The notes beneath the pieces are model-generated. The model did no database searches. It saw only the letters and a list, made by a program, of their open reading frames with translations, and was not told the origin of the DNA. 64,000 bases of DNA, from the sequence record OZ336095.1; one strand, 5' to 3'. Below are positions 6,856 to 37,532 of the stretch, one piece after another (the first letter of the stretch is position 1; the number at the start of each line of letters is the position of its first letter). Source of the DNA: a phage. Position numbers and translations under genes: made by a program.

Positions 6856-9555
6856 TTAGTGAACCTCAAGCCAGCTTTTACCAACCTTACCAGTACCTAT
6901 AACAAGTGTTTCTTTCTTAAGACCTAAGTTTTTAGAAGCTTGTCCATAATACCAGTCAGTAACTGCTTTCACTTCTGCCGTCATACTTTCTGGACATTCC
7001 CAACTTGTTTCATCGTGATATGCGCAGAGCAAACGAGCACCAATAGCTGGTTGACGACCATTCAACTTCATCAAACCTTCGTCAATCATACGACGACAAG
7101 CAAGGTTAATTGCCTCATTTTGAATCTGAGCCTCTGAACCCATCAAAAGATAGTTCAACAGTTTGTGTGGAGATTTACACCACAACCAAGCTCCAGCAAC
7201 CTTTACAAAACCCCCTTTAGAGATTGCAGCAGTCTTACCAAACACCTCTTCAAGTGCCTTCTTAGTTGCTTTGTAGTCAGCTTCCAAGTTATCTAGCAAC
7301 TTCTTAATTTTAGGCAAACGCACAAAGTAAGTCTGTTTAGTTAATGCACCTTCCTGAGTAGTGGCTGCCTTAATAGTTTTAGCAAACTTTTCATCACCTG
7401 CACCGAACAGTAGTGCATAGATACCATTCTTAGCTTTCTTACGACCTTTGCTAATCTCATGAAGAAGATTCTCATCCTGAGTAGCTCGACAAGTCAAGAT
7501 ATCCTGCTCATCATTCAAGCTAAAGTAAATACTGTTCAGTGTATGTGCATCAGTCCCTGAATAGACAACGTACAGGTCATTCTCAGAGTCATAGCGAAGG
7601 TACTTATCAATCTCTGGGTTTAGGTACTCATCAAAATGTTTGCAGTAATAGCGTCCATCTTCTTGACGAATAAACTCAATCTCTTCTTTACCTTGCGTTA
7701 CCGCTTTGGTGAAGTCTTTGTCACCCATAAAGTTACAAAGGAGAACTAGCTGAGCTGAGTTCATGTCTACAGAGACAACATTAGTACCTTCTTCACAAAT
7801 CCACACTGCCCTCATTGGTTCCCCATAGACGGCAGCACCAGACGGTACGTTTACAATACCATATTGTGTCATACGTCCAGTTGAAGTACCAAATACCATT
7901 GCACCAGCACTAAGGCGACCATCAGGACGAATCTGGTTCAACCAACCTTTTTCATCATCCTTTGAGTTCTCAATAGTTCTGCGTCTGTGCATCAAAGTGT
8001 AGTACTTAGCAATCTTCTGTCCAAGCTCACCTTCAATCGTATCATAAGATGATTCAGTAAGTTTTGGTGAAGTACGGATTAAGCAAGGCTCAAGCAAATC
8101 TGTGTATTTCTTCACAGACCAGTTATGCTCAATGTACTGTACACCTTCATGCTCAACATAGCTCAAACCACACCGCTCAATCATTTCCTGCCACTTAGGA
8201 TGTTTTGTAATCATCTTTTTATTGTCTTTGAAACGACAAACTTTGACAGGGCGACCATCTGAGTCTTTCTTGTAGTTCCAGTCATCTGGAATCCAACCAA
8301 CTGATTTCAAGTAGTCTTTAACAACTGCTACCTGAGTCATACGAGAAACTTCAAACTCAATTGGTGTATATGGTGCATCAATCAAACCTGTGTAGCGACT
8401 TGACTCAAGTTCAAAGTGGTTAACAACGTGACTGTTATAGTACTTCACAGTTTTGACTGTTTTTACTGGCTTCCAGTCTTTGCATTTCTTGCCAATCTTT
8501 GCATTCAACTCATTGCAAATTGCACGAGCATCCTTCATTGCTACAAAACCTTCCTTGTACTCTTCACCAGTTACAGAGTTGGTTGGTGTATAGCAATTTC
8601 TCTTTTCAATGTTGAAAATCTTTGTAGTTGGCTTACCAAATGGCTTGATTTCATATGTCTGCATCTCACCGTTACGTACCTGCTGACGATACTTTGTCTT
8701 AGGGTACTTGGTAATTCTCTTCAGTCCATCTGCATGACCGAATGTTTCAACATACTCATTCCAAGCTTTTGCAAACTCTTCTCCAGTGACTTTACCTTTG
8801 GTCTTAATAGTTGGAGGTAGATGTGGTTCAACCTCTGAAGCAAGTTCATTAGTCAATTTGTCAAGCTCCTTTACATGGAACTCCATAAGCTCCTTATCAG
8901 CTTTCCAACCATTGATAGCTTGTTGGCTCATCCAGAAAGATGTCTCTTTAGCTCGCATGTAAGTTTCATAAGTGTCTATACCACACTTCTTAAGCTTGAG
9001 ATACTCGTTATCAAGTGCCCGTTTAGTTTTGGCGTTAATACGGATATCTTCTACAACACGAGTGAAGATTTCTGCATTCCATACACCCCAATGCTCAATC
9101 TCTGGTTTACGAACACCAACACGAGCACCCCATGCAGCCAAACCATGAGCACCTTTATAACCCTTTGGAGTTGGTCTATCCATCCACTGAACACGAGACT
9201 GAATAAGAGAATCCTGAAAGAAATTACTCCACGGCTTACATTTTGGATTATCAAAGTTCCATAAATCCGGTGCAATGTGATTGAAGACCCACCAGTCATA
9301 ACCGAGGCCGTTATGGATACAAAGTCGTTTTGCCTTTAACGCAAACTCAACACCTTCACGTAAACCACCCTTAATGTACTTAGTGTACTTGTGACCGAGG
9401 ATAGGCTCATCTGTAAAGACCCATACAGGTGGCTCTTCATCGTCAGATTTATAGTCTGCAAAGGCCATTACGTGAACTTTAGTGAACTCAAGGAGTAAAC
9501 CATCAGTTTCTGTATCACCAACCAAATGTAAGTTTTTAAAATCTACGTTTTCCAT
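6856..9555 (-). CDS. DNA polymerase, family A (Pol I-like) with 3'-5' exonuclease domain
   Basis: Exo motif DTETDGL; motif A-like VSVDMNSAQLVLL; motif B-like RKKAKNGIYALLFGAG; motif C YHDE; start set at Met 11 with GGGAG RBS. Confidence 0.85.
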   Translation of the reverse strand: MENVDFKNLHLVGDTETDGLLLEFTKVHVMAFADYKSDDEEPPVWVFTDEPILGHKYTKYIKGGLREGVEFALKAKRLCIHNGLGYDWWVFNHIAPDLWNFDNPKCKPWSNFFQDSLIQSRVQWMDRPTPKGYKGAHGLAAWGARVGVRKPEIEHWGVWNAEIFTRVVEDIRINAKTKRALDNEYLKLKKCGIDTYETYMRAKETSFWMSQQAINGWKADKELMEFHVKELDKLTNELASEVEPHLPPTIKTKGKVTGEEFAKAWNEYVETFGHADGLKRITKYPKTKYRQQVRNGEMQTYEIKPFGKPTTKIFNIEKRNCYTPTNSVTGEEYKEGFVAMKDARAICNELNAKIGKKCKDWKPVKTVKTVKYYNSHVVNHFELESSRYTGLIDAPYTPIEFEVSRMTQVAVVKDYLKSVGWIPDDWNYKKDSDGRPVKVCRFKDNKKMITKHPKWQEMIERCGLSYVEHEGVQYIEHNWSVKKYTDLLEPCLIRTSPKLTESSYDTIEGELGQKIAKYYTLMHRRRTIENSKDDEKGWLNQIRPDGRLSAGAMVFGTSTGRMTQYGIVNVPSGAAVYGEPMRAVWICEEGTNVVSVDMNSAQLVLLCNFMGDKDFTKAVTQGKEEIEFIRQEDGRYYCKHFDEYLNPEIDKYLRYDSENDLYVVYSGTDAHTLNSIYFSLNDEQDILTCRATQDENLLHEISKGRKKAKNGIYALLFGAGDEKFAKTIKAATTQEGALTKQTYFVRLPKIKKLLDNLEADYKATKKALEEVFGKTAAISKGGFVKVAGAWLWCKSPHKLLNYLLMGSEAQIQNEAINLACRRMIDEGLMKLNGRQPAIGARLLCAYHDETSWECPESMTAEVKAVTDWYYGQASKNLGLKKETLVIGTGKVGKSWLEVH

Positions 9556-9615
9556 TTTTACTCCCTCTAAAATCATTAACCCCATACATTACTGCAAAAA
9601 ATTATAAAAAGCAAG

Positions 9616-11850: not shown

Positions 11851-12051
11851 ATGAAGATGAGAGTAAAAGACAATTTTAAAGTTATTGACCACCGTTTAGT
11901 GGAACTCTCATCTCTTTCCAATGAGGTAATGATTGAACGTCTTAAGAGAGTTGAATCACGAAGGAAAGAGATTGCAGATGAAATTCATGAACTGGACAAG
12001 ATTGAAAATGGATTGAAGGCAGAACTACAACGAAGAGGTGCTAATGTCTAA
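11851..12051 (+). CDS. Hypothetical small protein, 66 aa
   Basis: ORF track; charged, helical-looking. Confidence 0.4.
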   Translation: MKMRVKDNFKVIDHRLVELSSLSNEVMIERLKRVESRRKEIADEIHELDKIENGLKAELQRRGANV

Positions 12052-14029
12052 AGGTCGTAAATTGAAAGAGGCTGGTCAGTTTGTTGGTCATTGTGCATGT
12101 CCACGTTGTGGTTCATCAGATGCTGGTTCAATCTATCATCATGACGATGATTCTTATTCAATGACTTGCTTTAGTTGTAACAAAGGTTTCCCAGAGTGGG
12201 ATTTTGATAAAGGACAAATCGTGAGCACTTATTCTACTGGTTCAGACAATAAAAACCGTACTTTCCGTGGAATGGACTTAGAAGATGTAAAAGAAAACCT
12301 AGAAGCAATGGACTTGAAAGACAGGAAGATTCCTGCAAAAGTCCTTGAACGCTTAGGTATCAAGGTTGACATTGACAGTGACGGTGAAATTGATGCGCAC
12401 TTCTATCCAACTTACAAACGTAATGAAGATGGTAAGCTAGAACACGTTGGTTACCGTGTACGTCACCGTTACCCAGAAGACCATCCAAAAGAGCACCTAC
12501 GTGGTAAGCTAAAAGACTTTTCTGGTGGTGTTGGAGACATTAAAGGTGAACTAGCAATGTTCGGTTCATGGATTGCTCCAGAAGGTGGTAACCGTCTATT
12601 CATCTGGGAAGGTGAGATGGAATGTGCGACAGCAATCTATATGACTTCTCTTGCGATTAAGGACAAATCTCGTCGTAAGAATTACTGTCACGTATCTGTT
12701 CCGTCAGGTGCAAACATTAAGTCTATCAAAGATAACTATCAGTACATTACATCATTTGATGAGATTTACTTGTGCTTTGATAATGATGAAGCAGGTGCTA
12801 AAGCTACCAAAGAGGCTGCTGGCATTCTCCCTATCGAGAAGGTTCGTTTATTTCAGTATCCAGAGGGTGTAAAAGACCTTAACGAATGGTGGACAAAGTT
12901 CTATAAAGAGAAAGACACAGTTCTTGAAGGGTTTAAGCAGCGTATCTACAATGCACCCCGTTACTGCCCTGCTGGTATCAAGAACTTCGCAGATGGTTTT
13001 GAGGCAATGAAGAATCGTGGTCAGATTCCATTGATTCCTTTCCCAGAATCTTTCGGAGATTTGAACAGGCTGACTTATGGCGGTTACGGTTTAGGTGAGA
13101 TTACAACTCTGGCAGCACCATCTTCAGTGGGTAAATCTGCATACACTCGTGAAATGATTTATACTGCTTGGAAGGATACCGATTACAATATTGGTGTAAT
13201 TCCTGTAGAAGATACCTATGAAGAGTTGATGGAGATGCTTTGTGCAATCCACCTCAGCAAGCAGATTTCTGAGATTCCTTATGACGAACGTGATTGGGAT
13301 GAATTGAAGGAAGCACATGCAGAGCTATCTAAAGGTCGTCGTATCCACATCGTAGACCATCAAGGTGCAATTGACCAAGATAACCTGCTGGAATTTGTTG
13401 ACTATCTTGTTAACAGTTTAGACTGTAAGATTATTATTCTTGACCCTATTACGTTGGCTCTGTCACGTTCAGATACGGATGAAGAGGAAGTTTTGTCTGA
13501 ACTATTGCGCCGTTGCAAACGCTACCAGTATGCACAGGTGAACGTCTGTCACGTTCGTAAGAGCGCAGGTGGTCAGAAAGCTAACTCTGAAGGTGGAGAC
13601 ATCTCTGAAGAGGATATTAAAGGTTCAGGTGCGTATTTCCAGATTTCTATGAACAACATTCTGTTAATGCGTAACAAGGTTGACCCAGACCCTGTTAAGA
13701 AAAACTTGACAAAAATCAAGTTAACTAAATGTCGTCGTCACGGTAAGTCAACAGGTATTGCTGGTCATACTTGGTACAACCCAGATACAGGACGCCTCAT
13801 CAAAGCATCTGGTTGTGGAGTTGACATTGATGGTGCAGCAGAAAATATTCGCCAACAGTTTGGTATTGGTGAAGCTGAAGACCATTACGATGACTCTTTG
13901 CCACATTATGAGGATGAAGTGTTTGACCGTGAAACTGGTGAAGTTTATACTGAAGAACAACGTCAAAGTTCAACAATTCCACCTGTATTAAGTGAGGATG
14001 CAGATGACTGCCCATTCGAAACTGAGTGA
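12044..14029 (+). CDS. Bifunctional DNA primase-helicase (T7 gp4-like)
   Basis: N-terminal Cys4 zinc finger (CPRCGSSD...CFSCNKG); Walker A GEITTLAAPSSVGKSAY; ATG at 12044 with GAAGAGG RBS (track start 12038 is GTG). Confidence 0.8.
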   Translation: MSKGRKLKEAGQFVGHCACPRCGSSDAGSIYHHDDDSYSMTCFSCNKGFPEWDFDKGQIVSTYSTGSDNKNRTFRGMDLEDVKENLEAMDLKDRKIPAKVLERLGIKVDIDSDGEIDAHFYPTYKRNEDGKLEHVGYRVRHRYPEDHPKEHLRGKLKDFSGGVGDIKGELAMFGSWIAPEGGNRLFIWEGEMECATAIYMTSLAIKDKSRRKNYCHVSVPSGANIKSIKDNYQYITSFDEIYLCFDNDEAGAKATKEAAGILPIEKVRLFQYPEGVKDLNEWWTKFYKEKDTVLEGFKQRIYNAPRYCPAGIKNFADGFEAMKNRGQIPLIPFPESFGDLNRLTYGGYGLGEITTLAAPSSVGKSAYTREMIYTAWKDTDYNIGVIPVEDTYEELMEMLCAIHLSKQISEIPYDERDWDELKEAHAELSKGRRIHIVDHQGAIDQDNLLEFVDYLVNSLDCKIIILDPITLALSRSDTDEEEVLSELLRRCKRYQYAQVNVCHVRKSAGGQKANSEGGDISEEDIKGSGAYFQISMNNILLMRNKVDPDPVKKNLTKIKLTKCRRHGKSTGIAGHTWYNPDTGRLIKASGCGVDIDGAAENIRQQFGIGEAEDHYDDSLPHYEDEVFDRETGEVYTEEQRQSSTIPPVLSEDADDCPFETE

Positions 14030-14510: not shown

Positions 14511-15368
14511 ATGTCTAAAGTTGTTAAAATGAAAGCTCCGGTAGAGAAGTACAACGGTACTGAACGCCAAACTCTGCGTTACCTGCTGAAAGATGTCTGG
14601 TTTTATTACCTGAACACTTCACCACGTCCGGGAAAAGGTAAATCTATTGATAAGAAATTCCCAGGAAAAGACTGTAACTACAGCGTATCAATTCTGGCAG
14701 AAGACGGTAACAAACTGTTTAAAGAGTTTACTAAGTCTAAGAAAAATCCAGAAGGCTGGGATAAAGTCACTACTGAAGCAGTTGATGCAGACGACTTCGA
14801 AGAGAAGTTTGGTTGTAAACCACCTTTTGAAGCAGACACTTACTACATCTTGAAAGTAAGTCGTGCAGCAGCTTATAAAGATGGTGCTGTATGGACAGCT
14901 AAACAGTCATTCCCTGTTATGCTTATTGAAGAAGTAAATGGTAAGCGTGTAGCTGTTAAACAGCCGATGAAGAAAATCAAAGCTCAAGCATCTGATAAAC
15001 ATGAAGATGATAAGAACTATGATGTAATTCATCCAGATATTGCAGTTGGTAACGGTTCTTTTGGTAGTGTGATTCTTTCTACTCACTTCTACACTTTTGA
15101 GAATAATGTTCTGACAAAACCTATTCAGGAACAGTTTATCATTGATACTCTTGTACCTTACACTGGTGGTAACGGTGCTAACGGCGAACCTGAACTGGAT
15201 GAAGACGAACTGGCTATGCTTGGTCTTGATGGTGTCGAAGATAACGGTGAAATCACTGAAGAAGACGCAACAGACCACAAACCTTCGAATGATTCTGATG
15301 ATGGTGACGATGAAGACTTGCCAGACCCAGATGACGAAGAAGATGAAGACTTCGATACAGAAGACTAA
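14511..15368 (+). CDS. Putative ssDNA-binding protein with acidic C-terminal tail (gp2.5-like)
   Basis: 285 aa; extreme acidic tail DDGDDEDLPDPDDEEDEDFDTED; position after primase-helicase. Confidence 0.45.
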   Translation: MSKVVKMKAPVEKYNGTERQTLRYLLKDVWFYYLNTSPRPGKGKSIDKKFPGKDCNYSVSILAEDGNKLFKEFTKSKKNPEGWDKVTTEAVDADDFEEKFGCKPPFEADTYYILKVSRAAAYKDGAVWTAKQSFPVMLIEEVNGKRVAVKQPMKKIKAQASDKHEDDKNYDVIHPDIAVGNGSFGSVILSTHFYTFENNVLTKPIQEQFIIDTLVPYTGGNGANGEPELDEDELAMLGLDGVEDNGEITEEDATDHKPSNDSDDGDDEDLPDPDDEEDEDFDTED

Positions 15369-27692: not shown

Positions 27693-27963
27693 AGAGAAGT
27701 GGGAGATTTTACCATTAGTCAGTGAAGGTGGTAATGGTTGTGAGATGTACATGATACGTGGTCATGTTCCAGAACCAATTGCACTTGAGATGGTAAACAA
27801 CTTTACAGATGGCTCTTACAAAGACTTAGGAGAGCCAACTATAAAGCAGCAATGGGTAAAGCCTGTACCAGACAGCACAGGTAACTGTAGTGTACTTTAT
27901 CACGTTGTAGACCCTGCAAAATGCAAATCTGCAATGGCAGTAACAAACGTAACTTTTGATTGA
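27685..27963 (+). CDS. Hypothetical protein, 92 aa
   Basis: ORF track. Confidence 0.4.
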   Translation: MAKEKWEILPLVSEGGNGCEMYMIRGHVPEPIALEMVNNFTDGSYKDLGEPTIKQQWVKPVPDSTGNCSVLYHVVDPAKCKSAMAVTNVTFD

Positions 27964-27974
27964 GAGAGAAAACT

Positions 27975-28856
27975 ATGAAAACATCTATCCGTGTTACAGT
28001 TCATTCACCAACTAAAGGGACTCATGAAGAAGAGTTTAACATCGTCCAATTCCCTTCTGGTGAGATTGGTGGACACTTTTCGCCAGAGTTTGTTGATTTT
28101 ACTGCTTATGCAGCATCATCTATCAACAATGTGATTATGATTGTAAAAGGTTATGATAAGGACACATTGTTTGCTGTGGCACTTGCTAAAGAAGCAATTG
28201 ATGATTTAGTACCTCATAAGTTTGCTATGAAGACTGCTATCTTTTACTATTTGCCAAATGCACGTTACGACCGTCACATGTTTAAAGGTGATGCAGCAGC
28301 TTTGAAAGTGTTTGCACAACAGGTTAATGCAATGGGTTTTGATGCAGTCTGTGCAGTTGACCCTCACAGCTATGTACCAGATAACCTGTTTAACTGCTTC
28401 CAGAGTATTCCTCAAAAGGAAATTGCAGTCCACTATGCAAATGACCCACTGATTGATTACTTAGTAGCCCCAGATGCAGGTGCTGCTAAGAAGATTGCAG
28501 AGACTGCTAAAGAGGTGGATAAACCATACATCACAATGTCTAAAGTGCGTAACCTTAAGACTGGTGAAATTACTGGTATGCGAATCCTTGATGATGTTGA
28601 TTTGACAGATAAAACCGTCATGATTCTGGATGATATCTGTGATGGTGGTCGAACCTTCATAGAAGCAGCGAAGCATCTTCGTGAAGCAGGTGCAAAACGT
28701 GTGGAACTTTATGTAACACATGGTATCTTCTCTAAAGATGTTGAAAACCTTCTTGACAATGGTATCGACCATATTTACACTACAAACTCTTTAGGCGAAG
28801 CTAAAGACCGTGGCTTAACACATTACAGTCAAGTTACTGTAGCAAACCTTGATTGA
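27975..28856 (+). CDS. Ribose-phosphate pyrophosphokinase (Prs) homolog; candidate ADPR-PP synthetase of NARP1
   Basis: Prs-like motifs FPSGEIGG, YYLPNARYDR, VDPHS, VMILDDICDGGRTF (PRPP-binding loop), GAKRVELYVTHGIFS; ATG at 27975 (track start is TTG); immediately upstream of NAMPT-like gene. Confidence 0.65.
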   Translation: MKTSIRVTVHSPTKGTHEEEFNIVQFPSGEIGGHFSPEFVDFTAYAASSINNVIMIVKGYDKDTLFAVALAKEAIDDLVPHKFAMKTAIFYYLPNARYDRHMFKGDAAALKVFAQQVNAMGFDAVCAVDPHSYVPDNLFNCFQSIPQKEIAVHYANDPLIDYLVAPDAGAAKKIAETAKEVDKPYITMSKVRNLKTGEITGMRILDDVDLTDKTVMILDDICDGGRTFIEAAKHLREAGAKRVELYVTHGIFSKDVENLLDNGIDHIYTTNSLGEAKDRGLTHYSQVTVANLD

Positions 28857-28865
28857 AAGTTTATA

Positions 28866-28887
28866 GGGGCTTAAAAGCCCCATTTTG
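28866..28887 (+). terminator. Rho-independent terminator (weak T-run)
   Basis: ggggctt-aaa-agcccc hairpin followed by ATTTTG. Confidence 0.45.
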
Positions 28888-28901
28888 AGAGAGATTAAAA
28901 G

Positions 28902-30683
28902 ATGACTAAATCACTTTATGCAGTACCAGCAGGTTTAAACGCAGATGCTTACAAATCTGGTCATGTTTACCAGTACCCTAGTGCAACAGAATACTTGATG
29001 TTCAACCTGACACCACGTAGTGACAAATGGTTTAACAGCCCATTAGCAATTGATGGTGTAGTAGCTTTTGGTATTCAACGTTTCGTTAAAGATTACTTGA
29101 TAGACCACTGGAACGCCACTTTCTTTGAACGTGATAAAAAAGAAGCCATTGATGAAATATTAGAAGTCATGAATGGTGTTCTGGGTAAAGATGCTATCGG
29201 TCGAGAGCATTGGGAAGCACTTCACGACTTAGGTTATCTACCAGTTGAAGTATACGCTGTAGAAGAAGGTACAGTTGTCCCTATGCGTGTCCCAATGATT
29301 GTCTTCCAGAACACTGTTTCAGGTTTCCATTGGGTAGCGGGGTATCTGGAAGATGCTTTCTCTGCTGAGATTTGGAAGGCTTGTACCATTGCAACTATTG
29401 CATTGCATTATAAACGCATCTGTAAGAAGTGGGCTGACCTTACTTGCGACAACGACTTACATTTACCTTATCAGTGCCATGACTTTGCTATGCGTGGTAT
29501 GTCCGGCTTTACTGATGACGCATTTAACGCTGTAGGCCACTTAACCAGCTTTAAAGGAACTGATAGCTTCCCTGCTGTGTATACGGCTAAACGAATCTAT
29601 GGACAGTCTTACCCAATCTCTGATATTGGTAGCTCTGTACCAGCCACTGAGCACTCTGTAATGTGTGCAAACATTGCTTGGGAAGGTGGTAATGAGTTGA
29701 TTGAAGAAGAAAGACGCTTTAAAGGTGAGTTACAAACCTTCCGTCGTTTCTTAACAGAAACTTACCCAACTGGTATTGCAAGTATTGTTTCAGATACTTA
29801 TAACTTCTGGAGAACTGTGTCAGAAATCTTACCAGCACTCCGTAAAGAAATTATGGAACGTGATGGTAAACTGGTAATTCGCCCTGACTCTGGAGACCCT
29901 GTACATATTGTCACAGGTTATAAAGCAATCCACTTAGAGTGTGCTAAAAAGGCTTATTACGAGCACCTAAGCAAGCTTGAAGCCAGCGACACAATGTTGA
30001 ATGCTGTTCTGAACATGAAGCTTGAAAACATCAACTATGGTATTGCTGGATGGCTACTGTCAGAAGGCTACGAAATGGTTGTTGACAGAGAAGACTTTGA
30101 AGTTGCTGATACAGTGCTGTTGAAAAACGCTTATATGGTTGGTTCTGCAAACGTTGTAACACGTCCTGTAGCGGAGATTGATGGAGCTATCAAGACACTG
30201 TATAACATCTTTGGGGGAACTATTAACTCTAAAGGGTTTAAGGTACTGGATGAGCACATCGGCCTTATCTATGGTGACTCTATCACGCTGGAACGTGCAA
30301 ACGAAATCATGAAGCGTCTGTATGAAATGGGTTTTGCAAGCTCTAACGTAGTATTTGGTGTAGGCTCTTACACTTACCAGTACATGACTCGTGACACCTT
30401 TGCATTTGCTGTCAAAGCAACTCTTGCAAGCATTGGTGGTAAAGAGATTATGCTTGCAAAAGACCCTAAAACAGATAGTGGTGTTAAGAAATCTGCCTTT
30501 GGTGGTGTAGCACCTATGTGGGATGGTGAAAATCTGAAAGCTGTAGATGGCTATGGGTTCCAGAGCTTTGCAGATGCACTTGAACACCCAGCTTGTGCTT
30601 TACGTCTAGTCTTTAGTGACTCTGAGCAGTTCGGCTACACAACTCTTGGTGATATTCGAAATAATATTGACAAGCAGCTTTAA
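28902..30683 (+). CDS. Nicotinamide phosphoribosyltransferase (NAMPT/NadV) homolog; candidate nicotinamide ADPR transferase of NARP1
   Basis: 593 aa; N-terminal NADAYKSGHVYQYP resembles the NAMPT DSYKVTHYKQYP signature. Confidence 0.7.
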   Translation: MTKSLYAVPAGLNADAYKSGHVYQYPSATEYLMFNLTPRSDKWFNSPLAIDGVVAFGIQRFVKDYLIDHWNATFFERDKKEAIDEILEVMNGVLGKDAIGREHWEALHDLGYLPVEVYAVEEGTVVPMRVPMIVFQNTVSGFHWVAGYLEDAFSAEIWKACTIATIALHYKRICKKWADLTCDNDLHLPYQCHDFAMRGMSGFTDDAFNAVGHLTSFKGTDSFPAVYTAKRIYGQSYPISDIGSSVPATEHSVMCANIAWEGGNELIEEERRFKGELQTFRRFLTETYPTGIASIVSDTYNFWRTVSEILPALRKEIMERDGKLVIRPDSGDPVHIVTGYKAIHLECAKKAYYEHLSKLEASDTMLNAVLNMKLENINYGIAGWLLSEGYEMVVDREDFEVADTVLLKNAYMVGSANVVTRPVAEIDGAIKTLYNIFGGTINSKGFKVLDEHIGLIYGDSITLERANEIMKRLYEMGFASSNVVFGVGSYTYQYMTRDTFAFAVKATLASIGGKEIMLAKDPKTDSGVKKSAFGGVAPMWDGENLKAVDGYGFQSFADALEHPACALRLVFSDSEQFGYTTLGDIRNNIDKQL

Positions 30684-30698
30684 AAGTATATGATAAGA

Positions 30699-30719
30699 GG
30701 CTCCTACGGGAGCCTTTTT
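30699..30719 (+). terminator. Rho-independent terminator
   Basis: ggctcc-tacg-ggagcc hairpin followed by TTTTT. Confidence 0.6.
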
Positions 30720-30733
30720 AATTTCTGGAGAAG

Positions 30734-31081
30734 ATGATGGATAGCCTTTCTATATGGTTTAACAAGAAACCTGTGCAACCAAAATACTTACAAGTTGCCT
30801 ATACAGACATCCTTGAAGTTCTCGGTAAAGAAAAGTTTGAAAAGTTTTGTGAAGGTATCTACAATCACCACTGCCAATTTGCTACAAAAGAAGGTATGTT
30901 TGTCATAGAACAATTCTTTGGCAGAGACCCAGATGACTACGAAGAGATTAGCTTTGTAATGAAATACATGATAGAGTATATTGAAAATCGTGGATTCGAA
31001 GTTAATCCTGAATTTTATGAACATGAGGGTGTACCTTTAGCAAAAGGTTTCGATGGCATACTCGTTAACTGGACTTGGTGA
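30734..31081 (+). CDS. Hypothetical protein, 115 aa
   Basis: ORF track. Confidence 0.45.
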   Translation: MMDSLSIWFNKKPVQPKYLQVAYTDILEVLGKEKFEKFCEGIYNHHCQFATKEGMFVIEQFFGRDPDDYEEISFVMKYMIEYIENRGFEVNPEFYEHEGVPLAKGFDGILVNWTW

Positions 31082-31086
31082 AAACT

Positions 31087-31452
31087 ATGAAAATCAAAGA
31101 GATGAACATCAACATTGTCTTAGAAGAACGTTGGGAGAACATCAATAAGCCTGAAGATGGCCATAAGTTTCTTAACAAAATTTTAGTAGCAGCTAAAGAA
31201 GAACTGACTGGCAAGGTCGCAGCAGCAATTACAATAAAGGTCTGCGTAAAAGGTCTTCCAGACAATCACCAATTTGCACTTGACGAGTTTAAAGGAAGCT
31301 TCTACAATCCAAACAAACAGATGCTTGAAAGTAACTTTGCAGTGTCTACAAGTATCGTTCATGACAGAAGCTTTATCCTTTACAAGAATATGAGAGGTGA
31401 GTCATGCAAGCATGCAAGCATATTGGATAGAAATTTTACTGTCACTCGGTAG
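31087..31452 (+). CDS. Hypothetical protein
   Basis: ATG at 31087 (MKIKEM; track start 31075 is TTG). Confidence 0.45.
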   Translation: MKIKEMNINIVLEERWENINKPEDGHKFLNKILVAAKEELTGKVAAAITIKVCVKGLPDNHQFALDEFKGSFYNPNKQMLESNFAVSTSIVHDRSFILYKNMRGESCKHASILDRNFTVTR

Positions 31453-31588
31453 TGTAGCAGTCCTTGTTTATCTTCTTTGTAAGTACTTTGCAGAACATAA
31501 GAAGTGTGACTACTGTAACGGAGAAGGGTATACAAGAGCAGGTTGTTGCCCTATGTGTGGTGGTTCTGGTAAAATGTTTAATAAGTAA
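31412..31588 (+). CDS. Small membrane protein with C-terminal Cys-rich zinc-ribbon-like motif
   Basis: Hydrophobic segment then CDYCNGEGYTRAGCCPMCGGSG. Confidence 0.35.
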   Translation: MQAYWIEILLSLGSVAVLVYLLCKYFAEHKKCDYCNGEGYTRAGCCPMCGGSGKMFNK

Positions 31589-31616
31589 TTTAACAGTAAA
31601 CTAAGAGGAAAGTATT

Positions 31617-33983
31617 ATGCGCATGGTAAATGACCACGCAGAAGTGATTAAGAGTTCAACTTCTTTAGAGACGTCTCAAGCACAGATTACAATGACACCT
31701 GAGATGTTCAGCCTTTTGAGTTCTGGTGTATATACCTTTAAAGAAAGGGCAGTGATTCGTGAACTGTCATGTAACGCAGTAGATGCTCAGAAAGAAGCTG
31801 GAAAAGAGAACATCCCATTCCATGTGCATTTACCTACTCGTTTTGAGCCTTACTTCGAAGTTCGTGATTTTGGAACTGGATTGACTCATGATAAAGTTAT
31901 GAGTTTGTACCTAAACTATGGAGCTTCTACGAAGAATGACTCTAATGACTACATTGGTGCAATGGGTATCGGCTCAAAGTCACCATTTGCAATTGCTCAG
32001 TCATTCACAGTATCTAGTTATGTTGACGGTGTTGTTAATAAGTACTCTGTTTATCTTGAGAATGGTATCCCTCAAGTAACTAAGCTGACAACTAACCAAA
32101 CAAAAGAACCTAATGGTTTAGCTGTACGTGTGGCAGTTGCTGACCACCGTATCTCAAAGTTCTTTGAAGAAGCTGGGAATGTGTACTCATACTTCACTGT
32201 AAAACCAGAAAGTAATATTGAGTACGACGATGTATTAGCAGATATGAACGTAATTGCCCGTGAAGAAGGTGTTTATGATGCCATGATTCATAAGCACAGC
32301 TGGCGTTCTAGTGATAACAGGACAGAGTTTAATGTGGTGATGGGTAACATTGCCTACCCTGTTAATATGGAAGCATTACTTGGCGATGATTTCTTCAAAG
32401 TATTGCCAGAATTTTTCCGTAGGAGCGTAGACCTTGTAAACATCTACATGCCTATTGGTTCAGTTGCTATTGCAGCTTCTCGTGAAGCATTGCAGATGAA
32501 TGACACGACAAAAAATGTTATCATTGAGGCTACTAAAAAGATAACTGAAGCCATTACAAAGGATGTTATCAAAAAGATTAACAATCAGCCCACACTCATG
32601 GATGCTGCACAGGCTTATGCTGAGTTGCGTTTGAACTCACGAGAAATGTTTAATGCTGTGTGTCCAAAGCTAGAGTGGGGAGGCGTTAAGCTTGATTCTC
32701 TGGAAGAAGAGTTGCTAAACATTCGTCGCGGGATTATCTACGCAGAAGACGGCTCAGTCATTTATGAACGTGACGGTAAAGGTAATATTAAGGTTGATAG
32801 GAACGGGAACAATATCCCTAAAGTAGATTATCTTTATAACCCAGTTGCTTATGTCAAGTTCAACTCTTTAGAGAGTAAGATTCGTGCAACAGCACTTTCC
32901 TACACTCAAGAGGCAAGTATGTTCAATATCTTTGGTGCAATGCGTAAAAGCCAAATTGAACAGTTTTTGTTCGTGATTAATGACCGTCGCAATAAAAATG
33001 GTACTGAGAAGACTGTAGGCCGCAATCAGATTCTGCGTGGTGCATGTCGAGACTACGCCAGTGAGTCAAGTCTGTTTCACAGATACAATGGTATTGTGTT
33101 TGTATTCTCGACTGAAAAAGAGTTAGACGACCTAATCAATCTACACAAACTTGATAAAAGCTTGTTAAAGATTGTGAAGATGTCTGATAAGGAGCACCAT
33201 TATCAGCGTAAAGAAGCTGTAAGAGGTGTTGTAAAACTCTGGAAAGCTGTTCCAGCAGAAGGTGTAGCTTCCTATAAAGAGGTTTCAGAGGACTTTGATA
33301 CAATTGAAGAACCTCAGCTTTACATTAAGGCAATTGGTGACACAGTTGATGGCGAATGTTTTTGCTCATCTCCAGAAGATGTAGCCAAGTCAGTTGCTAA
33401 TGTTACAGGGAAGACAGTCTATGTTTTCCGAAAAGCAAATTGGAAAAAGATACCAGAAGACTGGATTGAAGTAGATGAGAAACTCTTGAACGACAGCTTA
33501 ACTGATGTTCATTGGATTAATCATAACAGGTATATGACACGTATCTATATGAATGGTGTCCTTGACCTTACAAGCAGTTGGATTATTGCCAGAAACTTTA
33601 CGTTCAATAACAGGAAGATTTCTCGTGGCTATTGCTATTCACGGGATACAAACAAAACTATCTTCCTAGAAGGAAATGAAGATGCTGTAGAGGCAATGTT
33701 CGGTAAAATCCAATACGTTGCTGCACCATTTGCATACACTTATACTATTAGTGTATTGAAAACTTTGAAAGACTGTCTTGACAATGATACAAAGCTTTAC
33801 AAGAAAATTAAGAAAGCTGGTGACCGTATGGTCATTAAGGTGACAAACTACCTTTCAAAAAGAAAACAAGAAAACTTCTTGCTTTCTCATTTAGATTGGA
33901 ATAAAGTGTCACCCATCGAAGTGAGTAAGTTCTTAGGCTTTGATGTAAAATGTGTTCCAGAAGGGACTACAATTTATGATTAA
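31617..33983 (+). CDS. rIIA: rIIA protein (GHKL-ATPase-like N-terminus)
   Basis: FSLLSSGVYTFKERAVIRELSCNAVDAQ, FEVRDFGTGL, NDYIGAMGIGSKSPFA match T4 rIIA N-terminal blocks; 788 aa. Confidence 0.8.
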   Translation: MRMVNDHAEVIKSSTSLETSQAQITMTPEMFSLLSSGVYTFKERAVIRELSCNAVDAQKEAGKENIPFHVHLPTRFEPYFEVRDFGTGLTHDKVMSLYLNYGASTKNDSNDYIGAMGIGSKSPFAIAQSFTVSSYVDGVVNKYSVYLENGIPQVTKLTTNQTKEPNGLAVRVAVADHRISKFFEEAGNVYSYFTVKPESNIEYDDVLADMNVIAREEGVYDAMIHKHSWRSSDNRTEFNVVMGNIAYPVNMEALLGDDFFKVLPEFFRRSVDLVNIYMPIGSVAIAASREALQMNDTTKNVIIEATKKITEAITKDVIKKINNQPTLMDAAQAYAELRLNSREMFNAVCPKLEWGGVKLDSLEEELLNIRRGIIYAEDGSVIYERDGKGNIKVDRNGNNIPKVDYLYNPVAYVKFNSLESKIRATALSYTQEASMFNIFGAMRKSQIEQFLFVINDRRNKNGTEKTVGRNQILRGACRDYASESSLFHRYNGIVFVFSTEKELDDLINLHKLDKSLLKIVKMSDKEHHYQRKEAVRGVVKLWKAVPAEGVASYKEVSEDFDTIEEPQLYIKAIGDTVDGECFCSSPEDVAKSVANVTGKTVYVFRKANWKKIPEDWIEVDEKLLNDSLTDVHWINHNRYMTRIYMNGVLDLTSSWIIARNFTFNNRKISRGYCYSRDTNKTIFLEGNEDAVEAMFGKIQYVAAPFAYTYTISVLKTLKDCLDNDTKLYKKIKKAGDRMVIKVTNYLSKRKQENFLLSHLDWNKVSPIEVSKFLGFDVKCVPEGTTIYD

Positions 33984-34062
33984 AGTGTTTGACAAGGGGC
34001 TTCAAAGCCCCTTAAAATAGCATCACAAAATGATTTATTAACTAACAAGAGAGAGTAATAAG

Positions 34063-35172
34063 ATGACTACTAAAACTAAAGCACAGATTGACGCAGAAAT
34101 TTACAAACTGGTTAAAGAGGGCAAGCTGACTAAAACCGCTATTGCACAGAAATTTAACACCTCAACCCGTTCAGTCGGTCGTGCTGTAGAGCGTCATGAA
34201 GCAACCTTAAAAGGGAATAAGAAGGTGACTTCTACACCAGCTACGAAGACTTTGAAGCAAGTTGCTAAGACCTTTAAAAAGAAAGCTGACAAACCAGTTG
34301 AAAAGGTTGTTAAAGAGTCTGTACAGAAAGCTCCAGTAAATAAACTACATGAAGCTATGCAGAAAGATGACAAGATTGAGTACATGATTACTGGTGACTC
34401 TGTAATTATGACTTATGGTTCAGAGTCTGAAATTGTTGAGTCTACTCATCCGAACTATCAAGAGATTGTAGTTCATGTTGTGAAAGGTGAGTTTAAGAAA
34501 GCCTTTGAACTGATGAACATTCGTAAGTCTATCGAAAACTTCACTCAGGGTGCTATCACAATCAAAGGTGATAAGTTATTCTACGGTGCTGTTGAGATGC
34601 GTTCTACTCTGGTTGACCGTATTCTTCACATGATGAAGACTGGAGATAAAGGCTTTGAACGCCTTGTGATGTTCTTCGAAAAACTGATGGAAAACCCATC
34701 TAAAGATTCCGTAGAACAACTTTGGGGCTTCGTATCTCACCTTGATGTTGAAATTGATGAAGAAGGCTACATCATTGGTTGGAAGAAAGTCTCTACTCGT
34801 GAAGGCAAGCTGGTTGACTCCCACACCTACAGAGTACCTAATGATTTGGGTAACATTGTAGAAATGCCACGTTGGATGGTTGATAATAACCGTAACGTGA
34901 CTTGCTCTCAAGGTCTTCACGTTGGTGCTTGGGATTATGTTCGCTGCTTCTCAGGTGATACAATTCTTAAGGTTCGTGTTCATCCACGAGACGTTGTATC
35001 CGTACCAACTGATTACAACGATATGAAGATGCGTTCATCACGTTATGAAGTTGCAGCAATCGTTGATAATCAACGTAAAGTACTGAAAGCATGGGATGGT
35101 AAGACTGAAGCTTTACATGTCATCGTTGGTACTGCTGGTGAACTTATCTCTCAGCGTAAACGTGAAAGCTAA
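34063..35172 (+). CDS. rIIB: rIIB protein
   Basis: LFYGAVEMRSTLVDRIL, ENPSKDSVEQLWGFV, VHPRDVVSVPTDYNDMKMRSSRYEV match T4 rIIB blocks; directly downstream of rIIA. Confidence 0.75.
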   Translation: MTTKTKAQIDAEIYKLVKEGKLTKTAIAQKFNTSTRSVGRAVERHEATLKGNKKVTSTPATKTLKQVAKTFKKKADKPVEKVVKESVQKAPVNKLHEAMQKDDKIEYMITGDSVIMTYGSESEIVESTHPNYQEIVVHVVKGEFKKAFELMNIRKSIENFTQGAITIKGDKLFYGAVEMRSTLVDRILHMMKTGDKGFERLVMFFEKLMENPSKDSVEQLWGFVSHLDVEIDEEGYIIGWKKVSTREGKLVDSHTYRVPNDLGNIVEMPRWMVDNNRNVTCSQGLHVGAWDYVRCFSGDTILKVRVHPRDVVSVPTDYNDMKMRSSRYEVAAIVDNQRKVLKAWDGKTEALHVIVGTAGELISQRKRES

Positions 35173-35189
35173 TAAGTAATTTCTTAAAA

Positions 35190-35211
35190 GGCTGCTTCGG
35201 CGGCCTTTTTT
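35190..35211 (+). terminator. Rho-independent terminator
   Basis: GC-rich hairpin around ttcg loop followed by TTTTTT. Confidence 0.55.
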
Positions 35212-35272
35212 ATTTGTATTTTGTGCAGAGTGCTGTATAATTGTTGTCACGATAAACTAAACAGGAGAACCA

Positions 35273-35821
35273 ATGAAGAAATTGATTCTAGGTTTGTGCT
35301 TAATGTTTACAGCACACTTATCTTATGCAGTTGACTGCCCAGAGCTATCAATTAGCCAAAAAGTAAACATGTTAAAAGCTTACCAGTATGGTGAGAATAA
35401 CATGGGTAAAGGTTGGGGTATAACTCTAGCTGCTATAGCCTTACAAGAGTCAGAGTTAGGTCTGAAGGTAGAGAATAAAAAGACACATGATTATGGTATT
35501 TTCCAGAATCACTTGAAGACTGTTGTAAAGCGTAACAAAATTAGCCCTAATGTGGCTAAAAAGAAACTCTTAAAAGATTTTGACTATGCTGCGAAGGAAA
35601 CGCACAAAGAACTTGAGTTTTGGACAAAGGTGCATGGTCAGCCAAAGTCAAAGAAGACTTTACAAAAAGTTTTAGCATCATATAATGCTGGGTATTCGTA
35701 CAGAATCCCTAAAGCTAAGAAGTATTCTCAAGATGTCTATAACAACATGAAAGTTATTGCTCAATGTGAATTTGCAACAAACATTTCTAAGGTAAATCAT
35801 GAAAAAATTAAGAAAGTCTGA
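35273..35821 (+). CDS. Secreted lytic transglycosylase-like (SLT domain) protein
   Basis: Signal peptide MKKLILGLCLMFTAHLSYA; AIALQESELG, DYGIFQ, YNAGYSY resemble SLT ES...GLMQ...AYNAG motifs. Confidence 0.5.
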   Translation: MKKLILGLCLMFTAHLSYAVDCPELSISQKVNMLKAYQYGENNMGKGWGITLAAIALQESELGLKVENKKTHDYGIFQNHLKTVVKRNKISPNVAKKKLLKDFDYAAKETHKELEFWTKVHGQPKSKKTLQKVLASYNAGYSYRIPKAKKYSQDVYNNMKVIAQCEFATNISKVNHEKIKKV

Positions 35822-37021: not shown

Positions 37022-37369
37022 ATGACATTTAAAGAGTTTTGTCAAGCTACTTTCATAATTGTTTTCTTAGTTGGGGCAGGTGTCTGGGGAGGATACTCTT
37101 ACAGAGACTACCAAGTTGCTGAAACTGAGCTAAATAATGAGAAACTAATAAGTGTTGCCAAAGATGCTTATCAGGAAGGTTTAGCCACACTCAGCACCAA
37201 TTACAAAAATGATTTGAAAGATGTGCTTGCTAAGAATAAGCACACAAAAGAGGTACTAACATATGAAAAAACTAAGCCAGAGTTTTATAATGTTTGTGTT
37301 ACTGATAATTATGTCAGGGTGTTCAACGAACAAAGTGAACAGTACATTCAAAAACTCCCAAGTAAGTGA
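37022..37369 (+). CDS. Candidate i-spanin (N-terminal transmembrane protein)
   Basis: 115 aa; N-terminal TM FIIVFLVGAGVWGG; overlaps a lipoprotein gene in another frame. Confidence 0.4.
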   Translation: MTFKEFCQATFIIVFLVGAGVWGGYSYRDYQVAETELNNEKLISVAKDAYQEGLATLSTNYKNDLKDVLAKNKHTKEVLTYEKTKPEFYNVCVTDNYVRVFNEQSEQYIQKLPSK

Positions 37370-37532
37370 GAGTGATAAGTACACTCAAGAAGATTCAAGA
37401 TTCACTATCAAAGGTAATACTGGTAGTGATGTGGCAGCAGCCCTTGAGTTCTATCGTGATGGATTTTACCAGTGCACAATCAAAGCTAATAACCTTATTG
37501 ATATGATTTTATTAGGAAATAAACAGCAATGA
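37263..37532 (+). CDS. Candidate o-spanin (lipoprotein), overlapped with upstream gene
   Basis: 89 aa; signal peptide with lipobox-like IIMSGC; GAGG RBS; start embedded in 3' end of 37022..37369. Confidence 0.4.
   Translation: MKKLSQSFIMFVLLIIMSGCSTNKVNSTFKNSQVSESDKYTQEDSRFTIKGNTGSDVAAALEFYRDGFYQCTIKANNLIDMILLGNKQQ

What the first reader, a model, noticed from the sequence alone, without database searches (positions are those of the whole stretch)
31617..35172. rIIA/rIIB pair in a phage with a T7-type replisome
Seen in sequence: clear rIIA and rIIB homologs (multiple conserved blocks matching the T4 proteins) lie in a genome whose replication genes are T7-like (family A polymerase, gp4-like primase-helicase, acidic-tail SSB). 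Established knowledge: rII proteins are membrane-associated factors best known from T4-type phages for lysis inhibition and escape from RexAB-type exclusion. Inference: the genome is a mosaic, and the rII pair may protect against prophage-encoded abortive-infection systems in the host.
Basis: partly seen in the sequence, partly recalled or inferred. Interest (0 to 1): 0.5.

Follow-up and report, generated by a model that had tools for sequence, protein, structure and literature searches.

The report
Known rIIA/rIIB pair, Felix O1-like phage
The two genes are genuine rIIA and rIIB anti-defence genes, but they are the standard, already published equipment of Felix O1-like phages, whose T7-like replication genes were described alongside them in 2010, so the finding is correct but ordinary.

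Summary
ORF 31617-33983 (788 aa) is rIIA and ORF 34063-35172 (369 aa) is rIIB. Both fall in the same PHROG families as the T4 proteins (E 1e-188 and 1e-88) and align directly to them (32% over 306 aa; 43% over 215 aa). The window is a Felixounavirus, 95-97% identical in DNA to many sequenced phages that already annotate these genes. The family A polymerase and T7 gp4-like primase-helicase are confirmed. The acidic-tail "SSB" is only plausible.

The combination is not new. The 2010 Felix O1 genome paper reports rIIA as gene 1 together with T7/SP6-like polymerase and primase-helicase. It is also not a recent mosaic: the 25-kb block from primase-helicase to rIIB is collinear across about 200 genomes, and rII pairs occur in about 2,900 phage records from many lineages.

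The proposed anti-abortive-infection role has been tested in close orthologues. Bas63 rIIA/rIIB deletions (97% and 83% identical) lose 10^4-10^5 plating efficiency on QatABCD, and SUSP1 knock-downs become RexAB-sensitive.

My own additions: intact GHKL ATPase motifs in rIIA, a sigma-4-like HTH in rIIB, no transmembrane helices, and a weak, untested ADP-ribosyltransferase-like fold signal in the rIIB core.

The parts
31617..33983 (+). rIIA gene (788 aa)
   Evidence: phrog_612 E 1.1e-188 over the full length; 32% identity over 306 aa to T4 rIIA, E 4e-37; 97.3% identical to Bas63 gp84; RBS AAGAGGAAA lies 5 nt upstream of the ATG.
31686..32567 (+). rIIA conserved N-terminal region (aa 24-317), containing a GHKL/Bergerat-type ATPase domain
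   Evidence: This is the only part alignable to T4. Motifs E49-x3-N53-x2-D56, D84-x-G-x-G88 and G114-x2-G-x-G119 are conserved in the window, Bas63, SUSP1 and T4. NCBIfam HSP90-family hit at aa 30-135, E 2.7e-11, and sacsin ATP-binding domain, E 4.7e-7, both below curated cut-offs. The GHKL assignment is published (PMC7824862).
32568..33980 (+). rIIA variable C-terminal two-thirds (aa 318-788)
   Evidence: Not alignable to T4 by BLASTP. Identity to SUSP1 falls from 86% (aa 1-190) to 48-59% here. Described as 'highly variable C-terminal domain' in PMC7824862.
33989..34018 (+). Promoter-like site in the rIIA-rIIB gap (TTGACA-18-TAAAAT), with a GC hairpin in its spacer
   Evidence: 11 of 12 consensus matches. 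The hairpin AAGGGGCU-UCAA-AGCCCCUU gives the gap an MFE of -17.2 kcal/mol, z -2.8. This is a consensus match only; function is not shown.
34063..35172 (+). rIIB gene (369 aa)
   Evidence: phrog_609 E 1.1e-88; 43% identity over 215 aa to T4 rIIB, E 5e-60; 100% identical to Escherichia phage VpaE1_ev78 rIIB; 82.9% identical to Bas63 gp85.
34078..34215 (+). rIIB N-terminal helix-turn-helix domain (aa 6-51)
34222..34326 (+). rIIB disordered lysine-rich linker (aa 54-88)
   Evidence: pLDDT below 50. The wider segment aa 49-100 has 14 K/R against 4 D/E. It is the most variable segment between genera: 50% identity to SUSP1.
34342..35169 (+). rIIB conserved alpha/beta core (aa 94-369), carrying the family's invariant residues
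35186..35209 (+). Intrinsic-terminator-like hairpin plus U-run closing the rII transcription unit
   Evidence: 10-bp stem, UUCG loop and T-run, 14 nt after the rIIB stop codon. MFE -16.0 kcal/mol, z -4.2, 0 of 200 shuffles as stable.
30695..30718 (+). Terminator-like hairpin upstream, separating the NAD-salvage genes from the small-ORF/rII block
   Evidence: 10-bp stem plus T-run. MFE -16.6 kcal/mol, z -3.3.
31412..31588 (+). 58-aa membrane protein with a zinc-finger-like tail, immediately upstream of rIIA (possible partner; link untested)
   Evidence: TM helix with KD19 2.16; C-terminal CxxCxGxG...CCPxCxGxG motif; conserved in Bas63 (bas63_0083 'putative membrane protein'), ULIM3 and SUSP1; unrelated to T4 rIIA.1.
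6856..9585 (-). Context: family A DNA polymerase
   Evidence: PF00476 E 3.8e-15; phrog_17 E 6e-113; T7 gp5 E 1e-13.
12038..14029 (+). Context: T7 gp4-like primase-helicase
   Evidence: Toprim_2 + DnaB_C; phrog_239 E 1.6e-184; 27.7% identity over 592 aa to T7 gp4, E 8e-45.
14511..15368 (+). Context: acidic-tail protein, candidate SSB (unproven)
   Evidence: 18 D/E in the last 25 residues. It lies between the primase-helicase and the exonuclease. No significant match to T7 gp2.5, the PDB or any named family.

Best explanation
This is the conserved rIIA-rIIB operon of a Felixounavirus (Felix O1-like myovirus, subfamily Ounavirinae). It is a pair of conditionally required counter-defence genes, dispensable on naive hosts but needed to plate on hosts that carry certain abortive-infection or other defence systems. 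That role is shown for orthologues: RexAB for SUSP1 and QatABCD for Bas63. The pair is part of the fixed ancestral gene order of the subfamily, linked to a family A polymerase and a gp4-type primase-helicase, and was not recently acquired. On how it works, the domain content is shown and the rest is inferred. rIIA carries an intact GHKL (HSP90/MORC/MutL-type) ATP-binding domain followed by a fast-evolving C-terminal region. rIIB carries a sigma-4/LuxR-like HTH, a basic disordered linker and a highly conserved alpha/beta core. Neither protein has a transmembrane helix. My preferred inference (about 40% among mechanisms) is that the two form a soluble or peripherally bound ATP-driven complex. 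This complex would act on a nucleic-acid- or protein-level trigger early in infection, masking or remodelling the phage DNA-protein intermediate that defence sensors detect. On this view it does not plug a membrane channel directly. The variable rIIA C-terminus and rIIB linker/tail would be the arms-race surfaces.
For: Identity: profiles and T4 alignments; 95-97% DNA identity to Felixounavirus genomes that annotate rIIA/rIIB; Felix O1 itself 92.9%. Function in orthologues: PMC11879866; bioRxiv 10.1101/2024.10.10.617714. Stable linkage: and synteny. Pairing across phages: 2,926 records for rIIA and 2,911 for rIIB, with near-identical host breakdowns. Domains: GHKL motifs (PMC7824862); HTH; no TM helix, maximum KD19 1.29 and 0.69. 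Arms-race signature: SUSP1 polymerase is 94.7% identical but its rIIA only 63% and rIIB 80%, with variation concentrated in the rIIA C-terminus and the rIIB linker and tail. RIIB is itself sensed by a CARD/gasdermin system (bioRxiv 10.1101/2023.05.28.542683). Own transcription unit: promoter-like sites and flanking terminators.
Against: No experiment has been done on this phage. Its rIIB is only 83% identical to the Bas63 protein that was tested, and 37% in the last 30 residues, so specificity could differ. The biochemical mechanism of rII is unknown in any phage. The classical T4 literature places the proteins at the membrane, and RexB-mediated depolarisation is a membrane event. ATPase activity and DNA binding are predicted only. 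GHKL similarity scores are below the curated family cut-offs.
Confidence: 0.85

Rival explanations
1. The classical view: rIIA and rIIB are 'membrane integrity protectors' or lysis inhibitors. They sit at the inner membrane and directly prevent depolarisation or premature lysis.
For: Database names ('RIIA lysis inhibitor', 'membrane integrity protector'). RexAB and the model proposed for QatB act by membrane depolarisation. A conserved 58-aa TM protein is encoded 29 nt upstream of rIIA. A spanin pair lies 2 kb downstream.
Against: Neither protein has a predicted TM helix. Their recognisable domains are a GHKL ATPase and a DNA-binding-type HTH. Knock-downs and deletions have no phenotype without a defence system, which argues against a general lysis-timing role. 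From my own knowledge, not checked here: in T4 the lysis-inhibition machinery proper is rI, rIII and the holin T.
Confidence: 0.25
2. rIIB is primarily a transcription factor that tunes phage gene expression, as proposed by Iyer et al. 2021, with rIIA as an accessory ATPase. Counter-defence would then be an indirect effect of altered expression.
For: Sigma-4/LuxR/DeoR-like HTH with high model confidence; HTH families in 22 of 73 homologues; the proposal itself in PMC7824862.
Against: There is no fitness phenotype on defence-free hosts. The most conserved part of rIIB is the 230-aa core, not the HTH. In T4 only the core aligns by BLASTP. RIIB alone is toxic and triggers a defence system when expressed without phage.
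Confidence: 0.12
3. The rIIB core is an ADP-ribosyltransferase-fold domain. It would bind NAD+ or an ADP-ribose-derived ligand, or modify a host or defence target, tethered to DNA by the HTH.
Confidence: 0.12
4. One reading: the pair is a recent mosaic insertion from a T4-type phage into a T7-type backbone.
For: The T4 replisome type differs from this one (family B polymerase in T4, from my own knowledge), while the polymerase and primase-helicase here resemble those of T7.
Against: Only 32-43% identity to T4. The block is collinear across about 200 genomes and several genera. There is no composition break around the locus: GC 0.39-0.40, and the GC-skew sign is unchanged from 10 kb to 42 kb. 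rII occurs in many non-T4 lineages. The combination was already described as the normal Felix O1 architecture.
Confidence: 0.03

Closest known systems
Felix O1 gp1/gp2 (rIIA/rIIB), Salmonella phage FelixO1 NC_005282; Whichard et al. 2010 (PMC3185647)
   Same: Same genes at the same locus, 92.9% DNA identity over the pair. The paper already notes rIIA as gene 1, a polymerase closest to PaP3/SP6/T7, and a gp4d-type primase/helicase closest to T7-likes.
   Different: Allelic differences only. The Felix O1 annotation starts rIIA 25 codons further downstream (its match begins at query position 76). The longer start used here matches phrog_612 from position 1 and has a good RBS.
Bas63 (JohannRWettstein, MZ501086) gp84/gp85
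   Same: Same genus and identical synteny. rIIA is 97.3% and rIIB 82.9% identical in protein sequence. Shown experimentally to be co-essential counters of QatABCD.
   Different: The rIIB alleles differ, especially aa 340-369 (37% identity) and aa 101-126 (73%), so the defence spectrum may not be identical. The preprint's statement of '>80% homology' to T4 is not borne out: I measured 32% and 36%.
SUSP1 (Suspvirus, Ounavirinae) rIIA/rIIB
   Same: Same subfamily and synteny; 63% and 80% identity. Knock-down sensitises the phage to lambda RexAB.
   Different: The rIIA C-terminal region is much more divergent (48-59%), while the polymerase is 94.7% identical.
T4 rIIA (725 aa) and rIIB (312 aa)
   Same: Same PHROG families, the same GHKL motifs, the same conserved rIIB core, adjacent genes, and a counter-RexAB role in the literature.
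   Different: Only the N-terminal ~40% of rIIA is alignable. The genome background differs (T4-type replisome). The T4 upstream gene rIIA.1 is unrelated to the small TM protein found here. In T4 the two genes lie at opposite ends of the linear reference map but are adjacent on the circular map.
N4-like (Schitoviridae) and phiCbK-like rIIAB loci
   Same: These show that rII pairs coexist with non-T4 replication modules. N4 rII knock-down is RexAB-sensitive, the BASEL paper notes the N4 rIIAB locus, and phiCbK has both a PolA-type polymerase and an rIIA-like gene.
   Different: Distant sequences (about 26-32% identity over the N-terminal third of rIIA) in podovirus or siphovirus backgrounds.

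Membership tests
rIIA (PHROG 612; T4 rIIA) | Full-length profile match to the family that contains T4 rIIA | tested here: met
   phrog_612 E 1.1e-188, residues 1-770 against profile positions 1-716 of 725. T4 rIIA is in the same family, E 9e-250.
rIIA (PHROG 612; T4 rIIA) | N-terminal GHKL/Bergerat ATP-binding motifs (ExxxNxxD, DxGxG, GxxGxG) | tested here: met
   Motifs at residues 49, 84 and 114, conserved in the window, Bas63, SUSP1 and T4. HSP90-family NCBIfam hit E 2.7e-11, below its curated cut-off.
rIIA (PHROG 612; T4 rIIA) | Encoded next to, and co-directional with, rIIB | tested here: met
   79-nt gap on the same strand. Record counts are almost identical across the phage collection: 2,926 for rIIA and 2,911 for rIIB.
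rIIA/rIIB functional class (counter-defence) | Dispensable on naive hosts, required on hosts with RexAB or another defence system | not testable with these tools
   Shown for orthologues only: SUSP1 and Bas63. No data exist for this phage.
rIIB (PHROG 609; Pfam PF26926) | Profile match and direct similarity to T4 rIIB over the conserved core | tested here: met
   phrog_609 E 1.1e-88; 43% identity over 215 aa, E 5e-60; all invariant family residues are present.
rIIB (PHROG 609; Pfam PF26926) | Match to the Pfam rIIB model | tested here: inconclusive
   The local Pfam-A copy returned no such family. PF26926 is precomputed for homologues up to 98% identical. The model appears to be missing from the local library, and I could not retrieve its name.
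T7-type replisome | Family A DNA polymerase | tested here: met
   PF00476 E 3.8e-15; T7 gp5 E 1e-13 for the polymerase domain and 2.7e-5 for the exonuclease domain.
T7-type replisome | Single-polypeptide primase-helicase (gp4-like) | tested here: met
   Toprim_2 + DnaB_C in one 663-aa protein; 27.7% identity over 592 aa to T7 gp4, E 8e-45.
T7-type replisome | gp2.5-like SSB with an acidic C-terminal tail | tested here: inconclusive
   The acidic tail is present. There is no significant similarity to gp2.5 (E 0.019, in a compositionally biased stretch), no PDB match and no named family.
Genus Felixounavirus | High nucleotide identity and collinearity with genus members | tested here: met
   25 kb at 93-95% identity with 94-100% coverage in many members. 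The rII region is 92.9% identical to Felix O1 and 97.1% to TH10.
Integral membrane protein (the 'membrane-associated' label) | Predicted transmembrane helix | tested here: not met
   Maximum 19-residue Kyte-Doolittle hydropathy is 1.29 for rIIA and 0.69 for rIIB; the T4 proteins score 1.18 and 0.89. Peripheral association is not excluded.
ADP-ribosyltransferase fold superfamily (considered for the rIIB core) | Significant structural similarity to ART catalytic domains | tested here: inconclusive
   [not shown]
ADP-ribosyltransferase fold superfamily (considered for the rIIB core) | Canonical catalytic triad (R-S-E or H-Y-E) with an invariant Glu | tested here: not met
   No Glu is conserved at >=80% across 73 homologues. 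The conserved polar residues are N211, S216, K241, N260, R270, C281, S282, H286, Y292, D310, S313, D317, K322, R324 and Y328. Non-canonical sets (Arr H-Y-D, Tpt1 R-H-R-R) could not be mapped without coordinates.

The most novel reading that the evidence does not exclude
The conserved core of rIIB adopts an ADP-ribosyltransferase-like fold and is tethered by a sigma-4-like HTH and a basic linker. Working with the GHKL ATPase rIIA, it would act enzymatically or as a ligand sponge on DNA, NAD+-derived signals or defence proteins. That would replace the 70-year-old 'membrane protector' picture of rII with a nucleic-acid- or NAD-level mechanism. It would apply to all rII phages, not this window in particular. 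I found no report of it in the held library, but I cannot exclude that it is described elsewhere, for example in the Pfam PF26926 entry.
Probability: 0.12. Interest if true: 0.65.

Novelty: already known. Interest (0 to 1): 0.12.

Why it matters
As stated, the finding adds nothing new. The rIIA/rIIB pair alongside T7-like replication genes is the textbook architecture of Felix O1-like phages (2010). The proposed deletion-and-plating experiment has already been done in the same genus and subfamily (2024-2025). Its practical value is as a correct annotation. It also marks window 27960-35172 as a run of counter-defence genes (NAD salvage followed by rII) in a phage group used for biocontrol and therapy. 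The only part with wider interest is the mechanism of rII itself, which remains unsolved. The domain picture assembled here (intact GHKL ATPase, HTH, no TM helix, a possible ART-like core) points to testable point mutants.

Tried and rejected
1. Local Pfam-A on both proteins gave no rII family, only sub-threshold HATPase_c and HTH hits. I do not treat this as a refutation, because PHROGs, direct T4 alignments and the precomputed PF26926 all agree.
2. Sequence search of the PDB with rIIA, rIIB and the rIIB family profile found no solved relative, only weak HTH hits.
3. SSB candidate against T7 gp2.5, the PDB, Pfam and PHROGs: no significant match. I left it as 'plausible'.
4. I tested whether the small TM protein upstream of rIIA is the counterpart of T4 rIIA.1. 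It is not: there is no similarity, and rIIA.1 is hydrophilic.
5. I looked for natural rIIA-rIIB fusion proteins, suggested by the 1055-column phrog_609 profile that both proteins hit. None appeared among the 120 best rIIB homologues, whose maximum length is 549 aa. I did not pursue this further.
6. Rfam scan of 30500-35500: nothing.
7. A wrong accession guess for Bas63 (MZ501111 is Bas51) and a range error. The correct accession came from the PhageMaP methods.
8. Recent horizontal transfer / mosaic junction: rejected on collinearity, composition and divergence.
9. I could not take the ART-fold lead to residue level.


Full report
WHAT IS THERE. The stated coordinates hold two co-directional ORFs on the + strand: 31617-33983 (788 aa) and 34063-35172 (369 aa). 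Against PHROGs, the first matches phrog_612 'RIIA' over its whole length (E 1.1e-188) and the second matches phrog_609 'RIIB' (E 1.1e-88). T4 rIIA and rIIB, fetched from NC_000866, fall in the same two families. Direct BLASTP gives 32% identity over 306 aa (E 4e-37) for rIIA, restricted to the N-terminal ~40%, and 43% identity over 215 aa (E 5e-60) for rIIB. The local Pfam-A copy has no matching rII model and returned only sub-threshold HATPase_c and HTH hits. However, every rIIB homologue in the large protein database, including one 98% identical, carries the precomputed family PF26926.

WHOSE GENOME. A 5-kb query around the locus hits 277 phage records, and 211 of them cover at least 80% of it. 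These are Felixounavirus / Felix O1-like phages of Escherichia, Salmonella, Shigella and Citrobacter, at up to 97% identity, and most already annotate 'rIIA' and 'rIIB'. Felix O1 itself matches at 92.9%. The window's rIIB is 100% identical to that of Escherichia phage VpaE1_ev78.

THE REPLICATION CONTEXT. The polymerase is family A: 6856-9585 on the minus strand, PF00476 E 3.8e-15, phrog_17 E 6e-113, with T7 gp5 E 1e-13 for the polymerase domain and 2.7e-5 for the exonuclease domain. The 663-aa protein at 12038-14029 combines Toprim and DnaB_C and is 27.7% identical over 592 aa to T7 gp4 (E 8e-45). A gp6-like exonuclease (15431-16471, E 2.5e-6) and an ATP-dependent ligase are also present. ORF 14511-15368 has 18 acidic residues among its last 25 and lies between the primase-helicase and the exonuclease. 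It has no significant match to T7 gp2.5, to any solved structure or to any named family. 'Acidic-tail SSB' is therefore plausible but unproven.

IS IT A MOSAIC? Not in any useful sense. The 25-kb stretch from the primase-helicase to rIIB is collinear at 93-95% identity in 196 records, and still recognisable at ~81% in other Ounavirinae genera. Gene order around rII is identical in ULIM3, SUSP1 and Bas63: PRPP synthetase, NAMPT, three small ORFs, rIIA, rIIB, a hypothetical ORF, polynucleotide kinase, then spanins. Base composition and GC skew show no break at the locus. rII is also not a T4-type marker. tblastn finds rIIA in 2,926 phage records and rIIB in 2,911, with near-identical host breakdowns. 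These include Vequintavirinae, Ackermannviridae-size genomes, and Campylobacter, jumbo Pseudomonas, Streptomyces, Rhodococcus, Rhizobium, N4-like and crAss-like phages. phiCbK appears in both the PolA and the rIIA hit lists. Most tellingly, the 2010 Felix O1 genome paper already states that the genome was opened at the rIIA homologue (gene 1). It also states that the polymerase is closest to PaP3, SP6, K1E, K1-5 and T7, and that the primase/helicase is closest to T7-like podoviruses (PMC3185647).

FUNCTION: WHAT IS SHOWN. CRISPRi-ART knock-down of rIIA or rIIB in T4, MM02, EdH4, SUSP1 and N4 has no effect on Rex-free E. coli but lowers plating on lambda RexAB (PMC11879866). SUSP1 belongs to Ounavirinae, and its proteins are 63% (rIIA) and 80% (rIIB) identical to those in the window. 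PhageMaP deletions of Bas63 g84 and g85, which are rIIA and rIIB, reduce plating on QatABCD by 10^4-10^5 and are complemented (bioRxiv 10.1101/2024.10.10.617714). Bas63 is in the same genus, with 97.3% and 82.9% protein identity. T6 RIIB is in turn the trigger of a CARD/gasdermin defence system and is toxic when expressed alone (bioRxiv 10.1101/2023.05.28.542683).

LOCUS ANATOMY. Terminator-like hairpins with U-runs flank the block at 30695-30718 and 35186-35209 (z -3.3 and -4.2). An 11-of-12 promoter-like site (TTGACA-18-TAAAAT) lies in the rIIA-rIIB gap with a GC hairpin inside its spacer. No Rfam family matches. A 58-aa protein with one TM helix and a CxxCxGxG-type tail is encoded 29 nt upstream of rIIA. 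It is conserved across the subfamily and could supply membrane anchoring, which is untested.

VERDICT. The novelty rating is 'already known' and interest is low. The remaining open question, how rII works, is general to all rII phages and is not specially exposed by this window.

Noticed in passing
window 31412-31588 (+): A 58-aa ORF lies 29 nt upstream of rIIA. It has an N-terminal TM helix (KD19 2.16) and a C-terminal CxxCxGxG...CCPxCxGxG zinc-finger-like tail. It is conserved in Bas63 (bas63_0083), ULIM3 and SUSP1 and is unrelated to T4 rIIA.1. It is a possible membrane partner for the TM-less rII proteins.
   Followed up: partly
[not shown]
   Followed up: partly
window 27960-30683 (+): PRPP synthetase (27960-28856) and nicotinamide phosphoribosyltransferase (28902-30683) lie directly upstream of the rII block. 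Their Bas63 orthologues g79/g80 are reported as counters of Sir2-HerA. Window 27960-35172 is therefore a run of counter-defence genes.
   Followed up: partly
window 28857-28901, compared with L001 17397-17888 and L006 13491-13982: ULIM3 and SUSP1 carry an HNH homing-endonuclease gene between the PRPP synthetase and NAMPT genes. The window and Bas63 lack it, with only a 45-nt gap at that position, so this is a presence/absence polymorphism.
   Followed up: no
window 34063-35172 versus L007 23826-24932: Within the genus, rIIA is tightly conserved: 207 records at 95-99% and only 2 at 80-95%. rIIB alleles are spread over 80-99%. Between the window and Bas63, rIIA is 97% identical but rIIB only 83%, and 37% in the last 30 residues. 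This suggests recombination or diversifying selection on rIIB, the partner known to be sensed by a CARD/gasdermin system.
   Followed up: partly
window 33989-34018 (+): The promoter-like TTGACA/TAAAAT pair in the rIIA-rIIB gap has a perfect 8-bp GC-rich hairpin (AAGGGGCU-UCAA-AGCCCCUU) inside its 18-nt spacer. No U-run follows it, so it is not a classic terminator.
   Followed up: partly
PHROG phrog_609: The 'RIIB' profile is 1055 columns long. rIIA N-termini (window and T4) match columns ~19-310 and rIIB proteins match ~751-1049. The family seems to include fused or mis-merged rIIA-rIIB sequences. No natural fusion was seen among the 120 best rIIB homologues.
   Followed up: partly
bioRxiv 10.1101/2024.10.10.617714 versus L007, L002 and L003: The PhageMaP preprint states that Bas63 g84/g85 share '>80% homology' with T4 RIIA/B. 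The measured identity is 32% over 306 aa and 36% over 322 aa.
   Followed up: yes
window 37022-37369 and 37263-37532 (+): An overlapping i-spanin/o-spanin pair lies about 2 kb downstream of rIIB, assigned by synteny with the SUSP1 and Bas63 annotations.
   Followed up: no
window 58411-63556 (+): An array of 26 tRNA genes, typical of Felix O1-like phages (compare the tRNA arrays).
   Followed up: no
window 14511-15368 (+): A 285-aa protein with an extremely acidic C-terminal tail (18 D/E in the last 25 residues) belongs to phrog_3877 'unknown function' and is annotated as hypothetical in relatives. It is a candidate gp2.5-type SSB that current profiles do not recognise.
   Followed up: partly
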